From contig JAEOUE010000125.1 of the NCBI GenBank assembly GCA_016839515.1, positions 1 to 14,090 of the forward strand: 14,090 nucleotides of DNA. The letters are read 5' to 3'. The stretch is from Candidatus Hodarchaeum mangrovi (lineage in GTDB: Archaea > Asgardarchaeota > Heimdallarchaeia > Hodarchaeales > Hodarchaeaceae). Made by a program: the position numbers and the translations under genes. Under the pieces are notes generated by a model that saw nothing but the letters and a program-made list of their open reading frames with translations, ran no database searches and was not told where the DNA came from. This document shows, piece by piece, positions 5,219 to 10,576 of the stretch; the stretch's first letter is position 1, and each line of letters opens with the position of its first letter.

Positions 5219-5788
5219 TCAGACATTAGAGGAGAGAGAAGGGAAATATTCCCGCTCATATTTTATCATGTCCTCTTCTGTGTGACACTTTTTATAATTG
5301 TTTAATAGGTTAGCATTCAGAGTAAGAAATTGAATTCCCCAATTAAATACAGATAGAATATCCTCAGCCATTTTTACATAGTCCAACAGAATAAAAGCTG
5401 CGGAAAGAGCTTCAACACTGCTTAATTTAGCTGGTTTTCCATAATTCACAGGATTAGCTGCTAAAAGAGTAGGTAATCTTCTAGAATTTGAAAATTTAAT
5501 GTTAAAAATAGATTCTGCTTGGTTCCATGAACAATCAAGTACTGTTATACCCGAACGTAAGAAAATAGGTTGGTCACTTATACAAAGGGTACGAGGACTC
5601 ATGGGGTTTAAAATGATTGAGAATCGTGGAATTTTAGCAGGATTTTTAACTAAATTTAAACCTTTTAATTGTTTAAATCTTCCTTGTTTATATAATCGCC
5701 AAACTTTTAAACTAGAACATTTTTTAGGGTCACATTGGGATGTATAATACACCGTTATATTTTTTGAAAGGGAAGAGTTATTTTTCAT
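5219..5788 (-). CDS. tsr3: 16S/18S rRNA aminocarboxypropyltransferase Tsr3
   Basis: QCDPKKCS, LDCSW, RRLPxLLAANPVNYGKPxKLSSVEAL, FNWGxxFLxLN. Overlaps the ABCE1 stop by 11 nt. Confidence 0.95.
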   Translation of the reverse strand: MKNNSSLSKNITVYYTSQCDPKKCSSLKVWRLYKQGRFKQLKGLNLVKNPAKIPRFSIILNPMSPRTLCISDQPIFLRSGITVLDCSWNQAESIFNIKFSNSRRLPTLLAANPVNYGKPAKLSSVEALSAAFILLDYVKMAEDILSVFNWGIQFLTLNANLLNNYKKCHTEEDMIKYEREYFPSLSSNV

Positions 5789-7619
5789 AATAATATTCGC
5801 CTTGATTTTTTTGTTGGCGATCTAGTTTGGAATCAAACTTATTCACTCGAGGGCGTCCAGATCGTGGATCACGGCGAAATGTAATCTGCACATTTCCAAG
5901 AAATCTATTCATCCCAAGACGAACAGAGGAGGGAGCATAAGCTTTTCCATATATACCTGATTCTCCTAAAAAAACTATTATTCGATCACTTACATAATCT
6001 TGAAAGACAATATCATGTTCAACTACAAAAGCTGCTGAATTTCGGGATTGAACAGCTTTCCGAATCATTTTTGCGGCAGTTAATCGGTCTTCAATTGATA
6101 AAAAAGCTGAAGGTTCATCAAGAAGGTATAAATCAGCCTCTTTAGCTAAAGTACTGATAATGGAGACTTTTTGTAGTTCTCCACCGCTTAAAAATTTTAA
6201 AGGTTGTTCAAGTAACTCTTCTAGGTTAAATGGACGTATATAATCGGTTTTGAATTGAGGAGTTGCTGAAATTGAGCCAGTAGATTGAAGTAAATAGGTT
6301 TGAACAGGTAATTCGCTTTCTGAGTTGATATATTGAGGTTTATAGGCAACTTTTAATTTTGGTTCTTTCTCCTCTGTTGTCTTTTTTTCGGTCATTTGGC
6401 CATTTTGAAGACTAGTTTGCGCAACGGTGCCTTTAGTTGGAGATTCGAGACCTGCTAACATTTTTATAAATGTAGTTTTTCCAATTCCGTTAGGTCCGAG
6501 AATTCCAATAACTTCACTTTTCTGGATGGTTCCTTTACGAACATCTAAAGTAAAATTACTTACATCATAAGTTTTGGATATATTATCATATAAAAGAAGA
6601 GGACTCGTTGTAAGATTTTCTTCACGAACAGAGGATTTTTGAATTACAATAGAATAATCCCGAAAACGCATATTTTCTGATGGTATAAATCCATCTAAAA
6701 ATATATTAATACCTTCTTTTTCAGTATAAGGTTGTGAAACGACTCCGTATGATGATGGTGAACCATAAAACGTAGTAACATAATCAGATAAGTAATCCAA
6801 TACAGCTAAATCGTGTTCAACTAGAATTACGGTTTTTTTATAATCTACTAAGCTACGAATTGCCTTTCCAACACGTAATCGTTCATTAATATCTAAATAG
6901 GAAGAAGGTTCATCAAAAAGATATACGTCTGCATCTCGAGCTAGTGCGACTGCAACAGCAAATTTTTGTAATTCACCACCAGACAAGATTCTTATTTCTC
7001 GGTCCCAGATTTTTTCTAAGGCTAAATTTATTTTAATTTCATCTAAAACGCCCCTTTCATTTAATCGACTAAGCGTTTCTTGAACAGTTCCCTTAATCTG
7101 GATTGTTATGTTGTCGATGTATTGAGGTTTACGAATACAGCGAATTTGTTTATCAATAATTCGTCCAAAATAGTTTTGAAGATCCGTTCCTTTATAAACA
7201 TCATATACACGCTCCCAAGATGCTTCAGAATTAGGTTCACCAAAATTTGGAATAATATCACCAGCTAAAATTTTGAGAGCTGTTGATTTCCCAATTCCAT
7301 TTTGTCCCACTAACCCATTAACACTATTAGATTTAATAATCGGTAAACGAAATAATGTAAATCCATTAGGGCCAAAACGATGTGTAAGATCCTCGTCTAA
7401 ACGTTCTGGGGTATTAATTATCGTTAAAGCATGAAATCGACAAGTACGAGCACAGATACCACATCCTGTACAAAATTGTTCATGAATGATAGGTTGAGAT
7501 GTTGGGGTAGTAAACTCAAACATTTCGGTTCCAGATCGTACAACAGGACAGGAACCTCGACACTCCTTAACACAGCGTTTGGGTTTACACTTATCTGGAT
7601 TTAATACGACTATTCGCAT
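5778..7619 (-). CDS. rli1: Ribosome recycling ATPase ABCE1/Rli1 (2x[4Fe-4S] domain plus two ABC domains)
   Basis: N-terminal CxPxxCxxECxxxCP...CTGCGICxxxC. Two Walker A motifs (GQNGIGKST, GPNGIGKTT), two LSGGELQ, DEPS, VEHD, and C-terminal FRRDxxSGRPRVNK. Confidence 0.98.
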   Translation of the reverse strand: MRIVVLNPDKCKPKRCVKECRGSCPVVRSGTEMFEFTTPTSQPIIHEQFCTGCGICARTCRFHALTIINTPERLDEDLTHRFGPNGFTLFRLPIIKSNSVNGLVGQNGIGKSTALKILAGDIIPNFGEPNSEASWERVYDVYKGTDLQNYFGRIIDKQIRCIRKPQYIDNITIQIKGTVQETLSRLNERGVLDEIKINLALEKIWDREIRILSGGELQKFAVAVALARDADVYLFDEPSSYLDINERLRVGKAIRSLVDYKKTVILVEHDLAVLDYLSDYVTTFYGSPSSYGVVSQPYTEKEGINIFLDGFIPSENMRFRDYSIVIQKSSVREENLTTSPLLLYDNISKTYDVSNFTLDVRKGTIQKSEVIGILGPNGIGKTTFIKMLAGLESPTKGTVAQTSLQNGQMTEKKTTEEKEPKLKVAYKPQYINSESELPVQTYLLQSTGSISATPQFKTDYIRPFNLEELLEQPLKFLSGGELQKVSIISTLAKEADLYLLDEPSAFLSIEDRLTAAKMIRKAVQSRNSAAFVVEHDIVFQDYVSDRIIVFLGESGIYGKAYAPSSVRLGMNRFLGNVQITFRRDPRSGRPRVNKFDSKLDRQQKNQGEYYYEK

Positions 7620-7818
7620 ATTTTCATCAAGCTCTGAAAATTAAATTACCAAATAAAGCGAGAATGTGTTTAATTAAAGAACTTTCAGCCATAAAACCGG
7701 ATAACTTAGTCGTCCTCTGTAAATTTTTTTATTGGAAAAATGATGATAAATATCTCTGAAAAAATCTTCCCATTGGTTTAAAAATAATAAAGTTCAAAAA
7801 GGAATAATTATCTAAAAA

Positions 7819-8253
7819 AAATGGTGGATCAAGTCAAAGACTGACTCCGGGTTCTTTGATAGGAACCTGAGGAAATTCCAGCCATTCGTAAAAACCTGCA
7901 CAGGGGATACCTTTATAAAAGGAAAGCTCCTGTCAAGCGAGAGCTTGGGCACTGGAACAGAAACGACACGTCCTGTTTTCTATGGCAAGGATGGTGAGAC
8001 ACCACTGGCAACAGTACGTAAGTTAATCACCAGAGGACGAAACAGGAAACGATGAGACGAGCAACCGCAGGGAATGCAAGCGAGATTGGTTTTCAAGAAC
8101 GAAAACCATGGGAGACGCGCTGAGGTAGATGTCAGAACCCCCTTAGAGGGCAACCACTCAGGGGATAACAAAAGCTGGATTACTCATGACATGATGCTTA
8201 AAATACTCTAATCCCGTTTTACAAAAAGATGGGAAGAGTATTCACCACCATTT
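7819..8253 (+). ncRNA. rnpB: Archaeal RNase P RNA (conserved core about 7828-8195; possible extended P1 to 7819/8253)
   Basis: GC-richer island. CR-I GAGGAAATTCCAGC (7869-7882) pairs as P4 with CR-V AACAAAAGCTGGATTA (8167-8182). CR-II ACAGAAA (7957-7963) and CR-III TGAGAC (8053-8058). P2 CTGAC/GTCAG, P5 CATTC/GAATG, P7 CCTGC/GCAGG, P9 CAAGC-GAGA-GCTTG, P12 TCCTGTTT/AAACAGGA, P19 CCCC...GGGG. Transcript ends are uncertain. Confidence 0.93.
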
Positions 8254-8473
8254 CCTCTTTATATTTCTAGTTTTCTTAATTTCGTTCTCTTTTACATTGA
8301 AATTCTATTTAAATGAAAATAAAGAATATTATGCTTTATCAACCTTTACAAATCTCTCAACCTTTCTGGCAAAGATAGATTTTTAATTGCCACTCTAAAA
8401 AGTATTATTAGTAGCATTTCTGTTAAACAAACAAGTTGTACTATGTTCTGTATTATAATCAAAAGGGTTAACC

Positions 8474-10576
8474 ATGAGTATCCCTAGCTTTGATACATCC
8501 CATTATATGAATAAATATTCAACCAGCGCCGTTCGTGAGTTTTTACAGCCTCACGGAACAATTGATAAGTTATATTTAATTTCTTTGGTCTTTTGGTTTT
8601 CTACTTCTATTTTCTTTAAGCAAGCTCCTCTATTACGATTTGGATTCTTCATTTTTACCATTCTTTTTCTTATTATAAACAATCTGGTAAAAAAAAGGGA
8701 AGATCGTGAGTTCTCTTTATATGGATCAGTGATTAAAGTTTTCTTCATCTATTTTCTAATAATCTTTTTCACAAGTAATCGTGAGGTTAATCTCCCATTT
8801 TTACTACCATTTGAAGTTTCATACTTAGAATTTGAAAGTATCATTATCCTAACAACATTTTTGTTCGCAATTTTTCTCAATCAATTGCATTTTACATTGC
8901 TATTAGATTATGGCATTGTAGGTTATCAAGCGTTTTTATTTAGTCTTGTACGAGGATTTTGGTTAATTGGATTAGCCCTATACCTGTTTATTTCACTGGG
9001 TGTTTTAAAGGAAGAACTAATAGGTCTTACTCTTCCATGGGAAGAATATCTTTTTTTCGTTTTTATTTGCTATTTAGGTGTTTCATTGTTACCTTATTCA
9101 TATGACACTCTTCATAACTCTGTAATTAGACGAAATTTAATTATTAATCTTCGAGATAATGCTTTGGGAGCGAGTCTTTCACTATTTTTACTTGATATAA
9201 TTTTCCAAAAATTAACTTTTGAGATTTGGGATATATTAATCCCCCTACTTTTAGTTTCAGCTCTGATTCTATTAATAATAAGAGATCAAGATCTTCCTAT
9301 TGAAGAAAAACTCCTTGCTAGATCAATAGCAAAATCAAAAGAAATTTCACAAAAGTTGAATTCTTTAAAGTTTCACACCCCTGAGGATTTTTATGAGGCC
9401 AAAAAAGGTGTAGAATTACTTAATAAGCAGTCATCAAAGCTTTTCGCCAGCTCTAATTCTTTAGTCATTCCTTTAACTAAATATGACGATTTAGTTACAA
9501 TAGAAGTTATTGGAAATATGTCACTTCGGACTAAAGACTCTTTTGGCAGGTTTAAACAAGAAATAAAAGAACGAGCAACATTATTGTTAACAATAAAAGA
9601 ATGGAATGATTTAACTAAAAGAATAAAATTAAAACCTTTTTCTAATCTCAATTTATCTCAATATTATCAAGGTCTTTCTTCTAAGGAGGAATTTATGACT
9701 GAACTCGAAAATTCTTTAAAAAATTTCAAAGAAGAATTTCAAACGAGAGGTTTGATCAAAGTTGAAGAGAATCTGAATATGATTAAAGGAAAGTATCAGA
9801 TTCGAACTGCTGGAAAAAAACATGAATTTAATTTTCCAGGGATTAAAGTAATTGATGAACCTAATTCTCAACTAATTAAAATAGGATCTATTCAAGCAAT
9901 AGATATAAAAAGAAATATAGAGGGCCGAGAGGATCCTGCTAAATATTTCAGTATTAAAATGCCCTTTATTTCGTCAACTGAACTTAATTTAGATGGAAAA
10001 TATTTTGTTTTAAATATGCCCTTTGTTTCTGCTTTAGAGACACCAAAAGGTATGATTATGAAACTGTTTGGATTTAATGTGACTGAAGGAAATGAACACG
10101 AAATTCTTGAAGATTTAAATCGTATGATGGAATTACAAACAAAATTTAATAATTATTATGAATTTCGAATGTCCAATGTATTAGCACATGATGATAATCC
10201 CTCTCTCCTTCTAACTCGAAGTAAAGAAAAAAGTGGAAAAAATCTTCTTATGGTTGGATCGGAAGATACCGTTATTTTTGAGGATAAAGACGCATTTCCT
10301 CCTTATAATAAGCAAGAATCCTCAGTGAAATCTCAAGAAACCTATTCTGTCATTGAACTTTCAGAAAATGAAGTTGAGATTATTAACGGAGGTACTGAAA
10401 AGATAGATTATCAGTTTAAGCTAAAGAAATTAATGAAGCGAGTTGATAGAATGACAAAAAATGATTTCATTGAATATATGGGCTTTACTTCTCATCTTGA
10501 ATTCCTTGAATGGTTAACAAATTTACCTGATTCGTCTCCTATAAGGGTTGTAAATGAGTTTATTTATTTTAAATGA
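8474..10576 (+). CDS. Hypothetical membrane protein: about 8 N-terminal TM helices, large soluble region with short beta-hairpin-like repeats, putative C-terminal winged-helix-like domain
   Basis: 700-aa uninterrupted ORF. Hydrophobic segments lie within roughly aa 30-270 and the remainder is hydrophilic. No recognisable catalytic motif. Confidence 0.8.
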   Translation: MSIPSFDTSHYMNKYSTSAVREFLQPHGTIDKLYLISLVFWFSTSIFFKQAPLLRFGFFIFTILFLIINNLVKKREDREFSLYGSVIKVFFIYFLIIFFTSNREVNLPFLLPFEVSYLEFESIIILTTFLFAIFLNQLHFTLLLDYGIVGYQAFLFSLVRGFWLIGLALYLFISLGVLKEELIGLTLPWEEYLFFVFICYLGVSLLPYSYDTLHNSVIRRNLIINLRDNALGASLSLFLLDIIFQKLTFEIWDILIPLLLVSALILLIIRDQDLPIEEKLLARSIAKSKEISQKLNSLKFHTPEDFYEAKKGVELLNKQSSKLFASSNSLVIPLTKYDDLVTIEVIGNMSLRTKDSFGRFKQEIKERATLLLTIKEWNDLTKRIKLKPFSNLNLSQYYQGLSSKEEFMTELENSLKNFKEEFQTRGLIKVEENLNMIKGKYQIRTAGKKHEFNFPGIKVIDEPNSQLIKIGSIQAIDIKRNIEGREDPAKYFSIKMPFISSTELNLDGKYFVLNMPFVSALETPKGMIMKLFGFNVTEGNEHEILEDLNRMMELQTKFNNYYEFRMSNVLAHDDNPSLLLTRSKEKSGKNLLMVGSEDTVIFEDKDAFPPYNKQESSVKSQETYSVIELSENEVEIINGGTEKIDYQFKLKKLMKRVDRMTKNDFIEYMGFTSHLEFLEWLTNLPDSSPIRVVNEFIYFK
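9941..10030 (+). repeat. Intragenic degenerate direct repeat, 57-nt offset (KYFSIKMPFIS / KYFVLNMPFVS)
   Basis: AAATATTTCAGTATTAAAATGCCCTTTATTTC at 9941 versus AAATATTTTGTTTTAAATATGCCCTTTGTTTC at 9998. Confidence 0.7.

What the first reader, a model, noticed from the sequence alone, without database searches (positions are those of the whole stretch)
7819..8253. RNase P RNA with an extra 41-nt hairpin inserted into an extended P1 (three-way junction)
Seen: inner P1 is ATCA-A-GTCA(7828-7836)/TGAC-A-TGAT(8187-8195). A 17-bp hairpin follows: AATACTCT(8202-8209)/AGAGTATT(8235-8242) plus TCCCGTTTT/AAGATGGGA. Then CCACCATTT(8245-8253) is the perfect complement of AAATGGTGG(7819-7827), immediately 5' of inner P1. 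Established: P1 in standard archaeal type A/M RNAs is an unbranched helix. Inference: a new peripheral domain, or a precursor-processing structure. This is the most distinctive structural novelty in the window.
Basis: partly seen in the sequence, partly recalled or inferred. Interest (0 to 1): 0.7.

Follow-up and report, generated by a model that had tools for sequence, protein, structure and literature searches.

The report
Branched P1 helix in RNase P RNA
An Asgard archaeon's RNase P RNA carries a young, lineage-specific 49-base hairpin wedged into one strand of its terminal helix, a small but clean example of how a structured RNA grows a new branch.

Summary
An archaeal RNase P RNA (RF00373, 133.5 bits) lies at 7829-8194. 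It is followed by a stable 41-nt hairpin (8202-8242) and then by CCACCATTT, the exact complement of AAATGGTGG just 5' of inner P1.

The outer helix is not new. It is the normal extension of P1. In 19 relatives without the insert it sits directly against the Rfam hit and covaries strongly (12 of 12 pairs change on both sides). Extended P1 helices in other archaea have been mapped by RACE.

What is new is a 49-nt insert (8196-8244) in the 3' strand of P1. Only the window and one metagenome relative (L175) have it. L175 is 86% identical in the insert and its version still folds. The insert was not found in the 19 relatives or in 82 other genomes of the class, and it is single-copy in its own genome.

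Metatranscriptome contigs from two studies run without a break from the ribozyme core through the whole hairpin (to 8242 and 8244). So the hairpin is transcribed and not spliced out. No RNA contig covers either strand of the outer helix, so the mature ends, and with them the three-way junction, remain inferred.

Verdict: a real, lineage-specific expansion segment. It is a new variant of a known RNA, of moderate interest.

The parts
7787..7800 (+). Likely archaeal promoter: a purine-rich BRE-like stretch plus the TATA-like TTCAAAAA (7793-7800). It predicts a transcription start near 7821-7823.
   Evidence: The same motif sits at the same distance (-36 to -29 from the Rfam hit) in L017 and L021. 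BRE/TATA-like boxes lie at a similar distance in the 18 other genus sequences printed. In the relatives I counted out, the predicted start falls on the first base of the P1 extension. The start site is an inference from spacing and is not mapped.
7819..7827 (+). 5' strand of outer P1 (the P1 extension). Probably only about 7821/7823-7827 is transcribed.
   Evidence: It is an exact complement of 8245-8253. Pair probabilities are 0.90 or higher for GGUGG/CCACC. The homologous positions covary in 19 relatives. No RNA contig covers it.
7829..8194 (+). Archaeal RNase P RNA core (Rfam RF00373, full-length match to model positions 1-288).
   Evidence: 133.5 bits against a gathering score of 84, E = 6.7e-38. 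It is the only copy in the genome. RNA contigs of 4 studies lie on it.
7828..7836 (+). 5' strand of inner P1, with A7832 opposite A8191.
   Evidence: An A:A mismatch in P1 is described as the common archaeal motif proposed to receive the L9 GAGA loop (PMC2615603, passage read).
7939..7942 (+). L9 GAGA tetraloop, closing P9 (CAAGC/GCTTG, 7934-7947).
   Evidence: Read from the sequence. The GAGAG stretch is invariant in alignment A1. Its role as the partner of P1 is taken from PMC2615603 and was not tested here.
8187..8195 (+). 3' strand of inner P1.
8196..8244 (+). 49-nt lineage-specific insert in the 3' strand of P1: a 6-nt linker (8196-8201), the hairpin (8202-8242) and a 2-nt linker (8243-8244).
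   Evidence: Present in the window and L175 only. Absent from the 19 aligned relatives. Among 82 other genomes of the class, no match was longer than 42 of 76 nt. Single copy in G000. No Rfam family matches it. RNA contigs of two studies cover it with 0 differences.
8202..8242 (+). 17-bp hairpin with an AA bulge and the loop ACAAA.
   Evidence: -17.9 kcal/mol, z = -5.5. The L175 version folds the same way at -15.2 kcal/mol, z = -3.1.
8245..8253 (+). 3' strand of outer P1 (the P1 extension, displaced by the insert).
   Evidence: 9 of 9 bases identical in L175, while the next 6 bases are 3 of 6 identical and the downstream spacer is 74% identical. No RNA contig covers it.
8250..8281 (+). T-rich tract, the likely region of transcription termination.
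   Evidence: T-runs follow the P1 extension within about 0-15 nt in relatives. L175 has T7 at the matching place. The T4 inside the hairpin is not conserved in L175, and RNA contigs read through it. The termination site is an inference.

Best explanation
This is the single RNase P RNA gene of an Asgard archaeon. Records of genus relatives are titled Promethearchaeota, Hodarchaeota or Hermodarchaeota.

Like its relatives, and like the RACE-mapped RNAs of Methanothermobacter and Methanocaldococcus, it has a P1 helix that runs 5-9 bp beyond the Rfam model. In one shallow sublineage (the window and metagenome locus L175), a 49-nt segment lies between the inner and outer parts of P1 on the 3' strand only.

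The 5' strand of P1 stays continuous, so inner and outer P1 can still stack on each other. The insert folds on its own into a 17-bp hairpin that sticks out as a third arm. It is transcribed as part of the RNase P RNA and is not removed by splicing.

It is most likely a young expansion segment that the enzyme tolerates, possibly with a mild stabilising or end-protecting effect. It is unlikely to be a new catalytic or recognition module. The outer helix keeps the job it has elsewhere: lengthening P1 so that the region around the A7832/A8191 mismatch is stably paired as the docking site for the L9 GAGA loop.

Shown: the gene, the insert, its restriction to this sublineage, its fold, its transcription, and covariation of the homologous P1 extension in relatives.

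For: Gene: RF00373 at 133.5 bits over the full model.

P1 extension:
- In alignment A2 (19 insert-less sequences), 95.2% of 228 cells form standard pairs.
- 12 of 12 pairs change on both sides, and 0 of 500 shuffles reach the observed values. Controls with the partner slid by 1-3 columns give 27-52% paired.
- The promoter spacing puts the predicted start at the first base of the extension.
- Partial 3' copies of the gene in G007 keep their identity up to the last base of the extension and then diverge.
- Extended native P1 has been mapped by RACE, with about 200-fold more ribozyme activity in M. thermautotrophicus (PMC2615603, passages). The same was found in M. jannaschii (PMC9371926, passages).

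Insert:
- Of 36 RNase P loci scanned for where the 3' partner lies, only the window and L175 have a 9-bp Watson-Crick partner displaced by 50 nt.
- Identity between the window and L175: core 342/368, insert 42/49, outer 3' strand 9/9, downstream spacer 163/220.
- Of 5 stem differences, 3 keep pairing (A-U to G-U, U-G to C-G, U-A to U-G). One re-pairs by shifting the bulge, and one opens the loop-closing pair.

RNA:
- Contigs at 7835-8242 (X15, 0 differences) and 7833-8244 (X16) come from two studies.
- All 4 RNA runs give no cover on the flanks 7600-7832 and 8245-8500.
- No joints and no insertions or deletions were reported.

DNA: the stretch is held by 14 DNA runs. Counting the 6 RNA holders too, the 20 holding runs come from 9 studies. 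It is therefore not an assembly artefact.
Against: - No RNA contig covers either strand of the outer helix. All 4 contigs start at 7833-7835, inside inner P1, and the two longest stop at 8242 and 8244, exactly at the base of the hairpin. Taken at face value, the abundant RNA would lack the outer helix.
- Two contigs stop earlier, at 8185 and 8105.
- Only two sequences carry the insert and they are close kin. There is no double compensatory change.
- The insert is not significantly more conserved than the spacer (7/49 against 57/220 differences, Fisher p = 0.10).
- Chance helices of 8-9 bp (including G-U pairs) between flanks do occur in these AT-rich loci, for example L021 at an offset of 96 nt.
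- The inner P1 pairs have only about 0.3 probability in the unconstrained thermodynamic ensemble.
Confidence: 0.65

Rival explanations
1. The hairpin is the 3'-terminal structure of the mature RNA. The primary transcript is trimmed back to the base of the hairpin (about 8244), and the unpaired 5' strand is trimmed to inner P1. The outer helix would then exist only in the precursor. The hairpin would serve as a block to 3' exonucleases rather than as a branch of P1.
For: RNA contigs of two studies stop at 8242 and 8244, the last pair of the hairpin plus 0-2 nt. All four contigs begin at 7833-7835, whatever their depth (6-40). The tool itself rates coincident contig ends from different studies as only a weak hint.
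Against: Contigs cannot define ends. Losing about 10-15 nt at both ends would be expected from random-primed libraries (my own knowledge, not tested here). Adding that much to both contig ends gives about 7821-7823 and about 8253, which are the predicted start and the end of the outer helix.

All 19 relatives keep a covarying extension. In Methanothermobacter the extension matters about 200-fold for activity (PMC2615603). The outer 3' strand is 9/9 conserved in L175, next to a tail that is 3/6 conserved.
Confidence: 0.17
2. The hairpin lies in a 3' trailer. The functional RNA ends near 8195-8200 with a short P1. The hairpin and CCACC are co-transcribed and then removed, or they are read-through.
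For: The Rfam model ends at 8194. One RNA contig ends at 8185 (X19). MAFFT aligns ATGCT at 8194-8198 of the window with the ATGCTC extension strand of one clade of relatives.
Against: Two contigs from two studies cover core and hairpin as a single unbranched contig at one depth.

The window has no partner for its 5' strand directly after 8195. An RNA ending there would lack the extension that every relative has.

The early stops of X19 and X20 lie in a stretch where strain variants exist. X19 carries T7971C, the L175 allele, and L175 differs at 8109. Variants of this kind break contigs, which could explain the early stops.
Confidence: 0.1
3. The insert is a scar with no function. It was brought in by recombination at the 3' end of the gene, for example by an integrating element that carries its own copy of the gene's 3' end, or by the rearrangement that flipped the gene relative to ABCE1. 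This concerns origin and is compatible with the best explanation.
For: [quoted passage not shown] G007 has two copies of 179 nt (98% and 94% identical). L069/L051 has four pieces of 49-211 nt. This is the pattern left by elements that integrate into the 3' end of RNA genes.

Gene order differs: ABCE1 lies downstream on the same strand in the L023 clade, but upstream and divergent in the window. A 13-nt identity links the 5' arm of the hairpin to the ABCE1 promoter region of L177.
Against: G000 has no partial copy of the gene and no second copy of the insert. No target-site duplication flanks the insert. No integrase family was found in the 7 ORFs scanned between the G007 copies. A 13-mer match in AT-rich DNA may be chance.
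Confidence: 0.25
4. The insert is an intron-like or mobile element: a bulge-helix-bulge intron, or a miniature inverted-repeat element.
For: Its 8-bp perfect terminal arms look like terminal inverted repeats.
Against: It is single-copy in the genome and has no target-site duplication. It does not have two 3-nt bulges separated by 4 bp; the only bulge is the 2-nt AA. The RNA contigs that cover it show no joint skipping it.
Confidence: 0.02

Closest known systems
Archaeal RNase P RNA with a native extended P1 (M. thermautotrophicus, PMC2615603; M. jannaschii, PMC9371926)
   Same: The terminal helix is 5-9 bp longer than the commonly drawn or modelled P1. There is an A:A mismatch in P1 and a GAGA L9 loop. 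The ends of the gene pair with each other.
   Different: In those RNAs P1 is one unbranched helix. Here a 49-nt hairpin interrupts the 3' strand between the inner and outer parts, which predicts a three-way junction.
RNase P RNAs of the same genus (19 insert-less sequences, alignment A2)
   Same: They share the promoter layout, the core (70-78% identity by BLAST), the P1 extension and the T-rich tail.
   Different: None has the insert, and their extension follows the core directly. Most have a 3x3 internal loop (AAG/GAG) where the window has the single A:A mismatch.
Lineage-specific expansion segments and 'insertion fingerprints' of RNase P RNA and rRNA (accretion model, PMC12974513; supersized rRNA expansion segments in Asgard archaea, PMC7594248, abstract only)
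   Same: A self-folding branch helix is inserted into one strand of an older trunk helix whose stacking can stay continuous. It is present in one lineage and absent in its sisters.
   Different: The site (P1) and the host group are not mentioned in the text I could read. This case is very young, being shared by two sequences that are 93% identical in the core.
Circular RNase P RNA of Thermococcales (10.64898/2026.03.23.713588, passages)
   Same: The 5' and 3' ends are brought together by P1.
   Different: The RNA contigs here show no back-joint or loose end at the termini. Nothing suggests circularisation.

Membership tests
Archaeal RNase P RNA (Rfam RF00373) | Covariance-model score above the curated gathering score over the full model | tested here: met
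   133.5 bits against 84, model positions 1-288 of 288, E = 6.7e-38. The own-genome search gave the same result.
Archaeal RNase P RNA (Rfam RF00373) | Conserved core sequence blocks shared with relatives (the P4 strands GAGGAAA and ACAGAAACGA, and the 3' block ACA(A/G)AAGC(T/C)GGATTAC) | tested here: met
   These columns are invariant or nearly invariant in A1 (21 sequences) and match the model consensus. The helix names attached to these blocks are recalled, not computed.
Archaeal RNase P RNA (Rfam RF00373) | GAGA L9 tetraloop and an A:A (or C:A) mismatch in P1, the proposed L9-P1 contact | tested here: met
   GAGA lies at 7939-7942, closing CAAGC/GCTTG. A7832 lies opposite A8191. The motif definition comes from PMC2615603 (passage). 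The contact itself was not tested.
Archaeal RNase P RNA (Rfam RF00373) | Expressed as a stable RNA | tested here: met
   Contigs in 4 metatranscriptome runs of 4 studies cover it, and the flanks are silent.
Archaeal RNase P RNA (Rfam RF00373) | Cleaves pre-tRNA 5' leaders together with the RNase P proteins | not testable with these tools
   This needs a biochemical assay.
Expansion segment (lineage-specific branch on a conserved RNA) | Present in one lineage and absent in sister lineages, with the flanking trunk conserved | tested here: met
   2 of 21 aligned genus/order sequences carry it. It was not found in 82 other genomes of the class. The trunk (P1 extension) is conserved and covaries.
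Expansion segment (lineage-specific branch on a conserved RNA) | Folds independently and leaves the trunk helix able to stack | tested here: met
   z = -5.5 and -3.1 for the two versions. There are 0 nt between outer and inner P1 on the 5' strand. Stacking itself is an inference.
Expansion segment (lineage-specific branch on a conserved RNA) | Retained in the mature, functional RNA | tested here: inconclusive
   The hairpin is in RNA contigs of 2 studies. The ends are not mapped and neither outer strand is covered.
Bulge-helix-bulge intron | Two 3-nt bulges 4 bp apart at the boundaries, and the spliced form present in RNA | tested here: not met
   No such motif is seen in the sequence or the fold. 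No joints appear in the RNA contigs.
Miniature mobile element | Several copies in the genome and target-site duplications | tested here: not met
   A blastn-short search of the 91%-complete genome gave only the self hit; the other hits printed were 20 nt or shorter. No direct repeats flank it.

The most novel reading that the evidence does not exclude
The hairpin is kept in the mature, active RNase P RNA and P1 really is a three-way junction. As far as my searches reach, this would be the first branched P1 in an archaeal RNase P RNA. It would also be a naturally occurring before-and-after pair within one Asgard genus: 19 unbranched relatives against 2 branched. That would show the elementary step of RNA accretion, a self-folding branch inserted into one strand of a trunk helix beside the L9-P1 docking site. 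The branch might act as a new strut or protein handle.
Probability: 0.5. Interest if true: 0.45.

Novelty: new variant of a known kind. Interest (0 to 1): 0.36.

Why it matters
RNase P RNA is one of the few universal ribozymes, and its P1 helix is treated as a simple unbranched clamp. Here the same genus offers the unbranched form in 19 sequences and a branched form in 2, with the trunk helix preserved.

That makes a compact natural test of the idea that structured RNAs grow by inserting self-folding branches without disturbing the older core. It sits in the archaeal group closest to eukaryotes, which is already known for oversized rRNA expansion segments.

The insert lies 4-5 bp from the A:A mismatch thought to receive loop L9. 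Activity assays with and without it would show how much disturbance that contact tolerates.

On the practical side, Rfam-based annotation ends this gene at 8194 and so misses about 60 nt of the likely RNA. In relatives it misses 5-9 bp of P1 at each end.

Tried and rejected
- **Repeat or mobile element.** I searched the insert against the whole genome with blastn-short and against 82 other genomes of the class. Only short chance matches appeared, so this was rejected.
- **Known RNA family in 8186-8480.** The only hit was a chance snoRNA match at E = 1.3.
- **tRNA genes near the locus.** None was found in 9 loci.
- **K-turn or L7Ae site in the hairpin.** There are no tandem G-A pairs next to the AA bulge (by eye; the motif is recalled).
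- **tRNA-minihelix mimic.** The hairpin is followed by CACCACCA, but the spacing does not fit a discriminator base plus CCA, and relatives have other 3' strands. I dropped this as coincidence (by eye).
- **Circular RNA.** The contigs show no joints and no loose ends at the termini.
- **Assembly artefact.** Rejected, because the stretch is held by runs of 9 studies and RNA contigs reproduce it exactly.
- **First genome contigs pattern.** It was too loose. Most of the 119 stretches were chance hits in bacteria. It was useful only for the record titles of the archaeal hits.
- **RNA contigs X19 and X20.** They stop at 8185 and 8105. No run covered 7600-7832 or 8245-8500. Absence of cover is not evidence of absence.
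- **More of L175.** I tried to get more of the L175 record, to compare its promoter, through the genome search with handles. The record is not held. L175 starts only 15 nt before the core, so conservation upstream could not be judged.
- **Partial RNase P copies in relatives.** cmscan found only the contig-end copy L049, at 33 bits. BLAST and MAFFT showed the others. A Pfam scan of 7 ORFs around the G007 copies found no integrase.
- **Prior descriptions.** Five literature searches found no paper on the structure of an Asgard RNase P RNA or on a branched archaeal P1. The library is partial.
- **Integration into RNase P RNA genes.** The search found nothing relevant. The one paper holding all the terms has the phrase only in a reference title.

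Full report
**Observation.**
- The outer strands are AAATGGTGG (7819-7827) and CCACCATTT (8245-8253).
- Inner P1 pairs 7828-7836 with 8187-8195 around an A7832/A8191 mismatch.
- The hairpin at 8202-8242 has 8 + 9 base pairs, an AA bulge and a 5-nt loop.

The hairpin is far more stable than shuffled sequence: -17.9 kcal/mol, z = -5.5, with 0 of 200 shuffles folding as well. The 9-mer CCACCATTT occurs in the 14-kb window only at these two complementary sites, against a mean of 0.11 matches in shuffles. The repeat finder did not list the pair, perhaps because it filters short-unit runs. In the thermodynamic ensemble the GGUGG/CCACC pairs have probability 0.90 or higher and the hairpin pairs 0.78-1.0, whichever ends are assumed. 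The MFE and centroid structures of 7810-8265 keep both.

**What the gene is.** Infernal places archaeal RNase P RNA (RF00373) at 7829-8194, with 133.5 bits against a gathering score of 84 and a full-length model match. It is the only copy in the genome, a 4.0-Mb, 33% G+C, 348-contig assembly rated 91% complete. It lies in a divergent spacer between ABCE1/RLI (5778-7619, minus strand) and a 700-aa ORF without Pfam hits (8474-10576, plus strand). Records of genus relatives are titled Promethearchaeota, Candidatus Hodarchaeota or Hermodarchaeota archaeon. The organism is therefore an Asgard archaeon.

**The outer helix is the ordinary P1 extension.** I collected RNase P loci from 30 genomes of the class and 6 metagenome contigs. 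In every genus sequence without the insert, the bases directly flanking the Rfam hit pair with each other. Examples are GGCGT/ACGCC, GGCAT/ATGCC, GAGCAC/GTGCTC, GAGCAT/ATGCTC and GGCGC/GCGCC.

On the 19-sequence alignment A2 the result is clear:
- 95.2% of 228 cells form standard pairs.
- All 12 pairs show changes on both sides.
- 0 of 500 shuffles reach the observed values.
- Sliding the partner by 1-3 columns drops pairing to 27-52%.

Several other lines agree. A BRE/TATA-like box sits at a fixed distance, so that the predicted start falls on the first base of the extension. T-runs follow the extension. In G007, partial duplicates of the gene's 3' end stay identical up to the last base of the extension and then diverge.

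This fits published work. The native P1 of M. thermautotrophicus is 7 bp longer than first drawn, was confirmed by RACE, raises ribozyme activity about 200-fold and probably forms the receptor for loop L9. An A:A or C:A mismatch is described there as the common archaeal P1 motif (PMC2615603, passages). Native M. jannaschii RNA also has the longer P1 by RACE (PMC9371926, passages). The window has both the GAGA L9 loop (7939-7942) and the A:A mismatch.

**What is new is the insert.** A scan of 36 loci for where the 3' partner of the 5' flank lies found only two in which it is displaced: the window and L175, each with 9 Watson-Crick pairs at an offset of 50 nt. In most of the genus and order relatives the top-scoring partner sat directly at the end of the Rfam hit; that this adjacent extension pairs in all 19 is shown on the alignment. 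The scan also shows that chance helices of 8-9 bp do turn up, for example L021 at an offset of 96 nt.

The 49 nt at 8196-8244 have no counterpart in the 19 relatives. The longest match among 82 other genomes of the class is 42 of 76 nt. The segment has no second copy in its own genome and matches no Rfam family.

L175 is a close relative. Identity to the window is as follows:

| Region | Identical bases | Percent |
|---|---|---|
| RNase P core | 342/368 | 92.9 |
| Insert | 42/49 | 85.7 |
| Outer 3' strand | 9/9 | 100 |
| Next 6 nt | 3/6 | 50 |
| Downstream spacer | 163/220 | 74.1 |

Of the 7 differences in the insert:
- 2 lie in the linker or the loop.
- 3 keep pairing through wobble or a stronger pair.
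- 1 is rescued by a shift of the bulge.
- 1 opens the loop-closing pair.

The L175 version still folds at -15.2 kcal/mol, z = -3.1. This suggests some constraint but does not prove it. The insert against the spacer gives Fisher p = 0.10, and there is no double compensatory change.

**RNA evidence.** The stretch is held by 20 public runs from 9 studies, 6 of them metatranscriptomes. I laid the contigs of four RNA runs from four studies on 7600-8500:

| Run | Contig on the window | Note |
|---|---|---|
| X15 | 7835-8242 | 408 nt, 0 differences |
| X16 | 7833-8244 | 412 nt |
| X19 | 7835-8185 | carries T7971C, the L175 allele |
| X20 | 7835-8105 | |

All four runs give no cover on 7600-7832 or 8245-8500, and no joints or insertions and deletions were reported. 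So the hairpin is transcribed in one piece with the ribozyme in two independent studies and is not spliced out. The silent flanks argue that this is RNA and not contaminating DNA.

Against the three-way junction, no contig covers either outer strand. The contigs start inside inner P1 and end at the base of the hairpin. Contigs cannot define ends. Adding the 10-15 nt that random-primed libraries usually lose (my own knowledge, not tested here) gives about 7821-7823 and about 8253, which agrees with the predicted start and the end of the helix. That agreement is consistency, not proof.

**Mechanism.** The most likely picture (about 0.65) is this. The RNA runs from about 7821-7823 to about 8253 or a few U further. 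P1 consists of an outer part and an inner part stacked through the uninterrupted 5' strand. The insert projects as a third arm, joined by a 6-nt and a 2-nt linker. The outer helix does what the P1 extension does elsewhere, which is to stabilise the helix around the L9 docking site. The hairpin is a young, tolerated expansion segment that may add some stability or protect the end.

The rivals are:
- a terminal-hairpin form without the outer helix (0.17);
- a 3' trailer that is removed (0.10);
- an intron or mobile element (0.02);
- as a question of origin rather than function, a recombination scar (0.25, compatible with the main reading).

**Comparison and novelty.** The RNA is a member of archaeal RNase P RNA by every test I could run. 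The extended P1 is already known. A branch in P1 was not found in the five literature searches. I rate this a new variant of a known kind. It is modest in scope, with two sequences in one shallow lineage, but it is a tidy natural example of RNA growth by branch insertion.

[quoted passage not shown] G007 has two 179-nt copies (98% and 94% identical) about 3.3 and 7.0 kb away. L069/L051 has four pieces of 211, 129, 83 and 49 nt within 5 kb. L086, L085 and L121 have further examples. This is the footprint that integrating elements leave at the 3' end of tRNA genes. It suggests that the RNase P RNA gene is an integration hotspot in this genus. No integrase family was seen in the 7 ORFs scanned, and G000 has no such copy. 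It is worth a study of its own and is one possible source of the window's insert.

Noticed in passing
G007:C52 482373-482535 and 486074-486244 (L050, L055, L095); L069/L051 1214-1424, 2599-2727, 4183-4265, 5176-5224; L086/L047/L052; L085 3661-3751; L121: [quoted passage not shown] In G007, L069/L051 and L085 they lie downstream of the intact gene on the same record. The aligned G007 copies start sharply and end at the last base of the P1 extension. This looks like the attachment-site footprint of elements that integrate into the 3' end of the gene, repeated several times. No integrase Pfam family was found in 7 ORFs around the G007 copies. None of these copies is in the window's own genome.
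   Followed up: partly
L029 (G035, another family of the class) 1492-1499 with 1864-1871: The 5' flank ACTAATCG pairs perfectly (8 Watson-Crick pairs) with CGATTAGT, which lies 21 nt after the Rfam 3' end, across a T-rich spacer that contains T7. This may be a second, independent case of a displaced P1 extension, or it may be chance. It is a single sequence.
   Followed up: no
window 5778-7619 (minus strand) versus L023, L024, L025, L026 and L177 downstream of their RNase P genes: Gene order differs within the genus. In the L023 clade ABCE1/RLI starts about 100 nt downstream of the RNase P RNA on the same strand. In the window it lies upstream and divergent. The ABCE1 promoter region of L177 shares a 13-nt identity (AAAATACTCTAAT) with the 5' arm of the window's hairpin. 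This may be a relic or chance.
   Followed up: partly
window 8474-10576 (plus strand): A 700-aa ORF with no Pfam family lies directly downstream of the RNase P RNA. Its start is conserved in L175 (about 78% DNA identity over about the first 90 nt).
   Followed up: no
alignment A2 columns 19-21 with 412-414; window 7832/8191: Most genus relatives have a 3x3 internal loop (AAG opposite GAG, or GAG opposite GAA) in P1 at the place where the window and L175 have a single A:A mismatch flanked by Watson-Crick pairs. The proposed L9 receptor therefore differs within the genus.
   Followed up: no
window 7971, 8109 and other sites; RNA run X19: The X19 RNA contig carries T7971C, the allele of metagenome relative L175. 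Several strains of this sublineage are therefore transcriptionally active in sediments, and their variants probably break some contigs early.
   Followed up: no
window 7760-7784 versus 8218-8242: An imperfect inverted repeat (25 nt, 72% complementary, with a 9-nt identical core) links the region upstream of the promoter to the 3' arm of the hairpin. It may relate to the inversion of the gene, or it may be chance.
   Followed up: no
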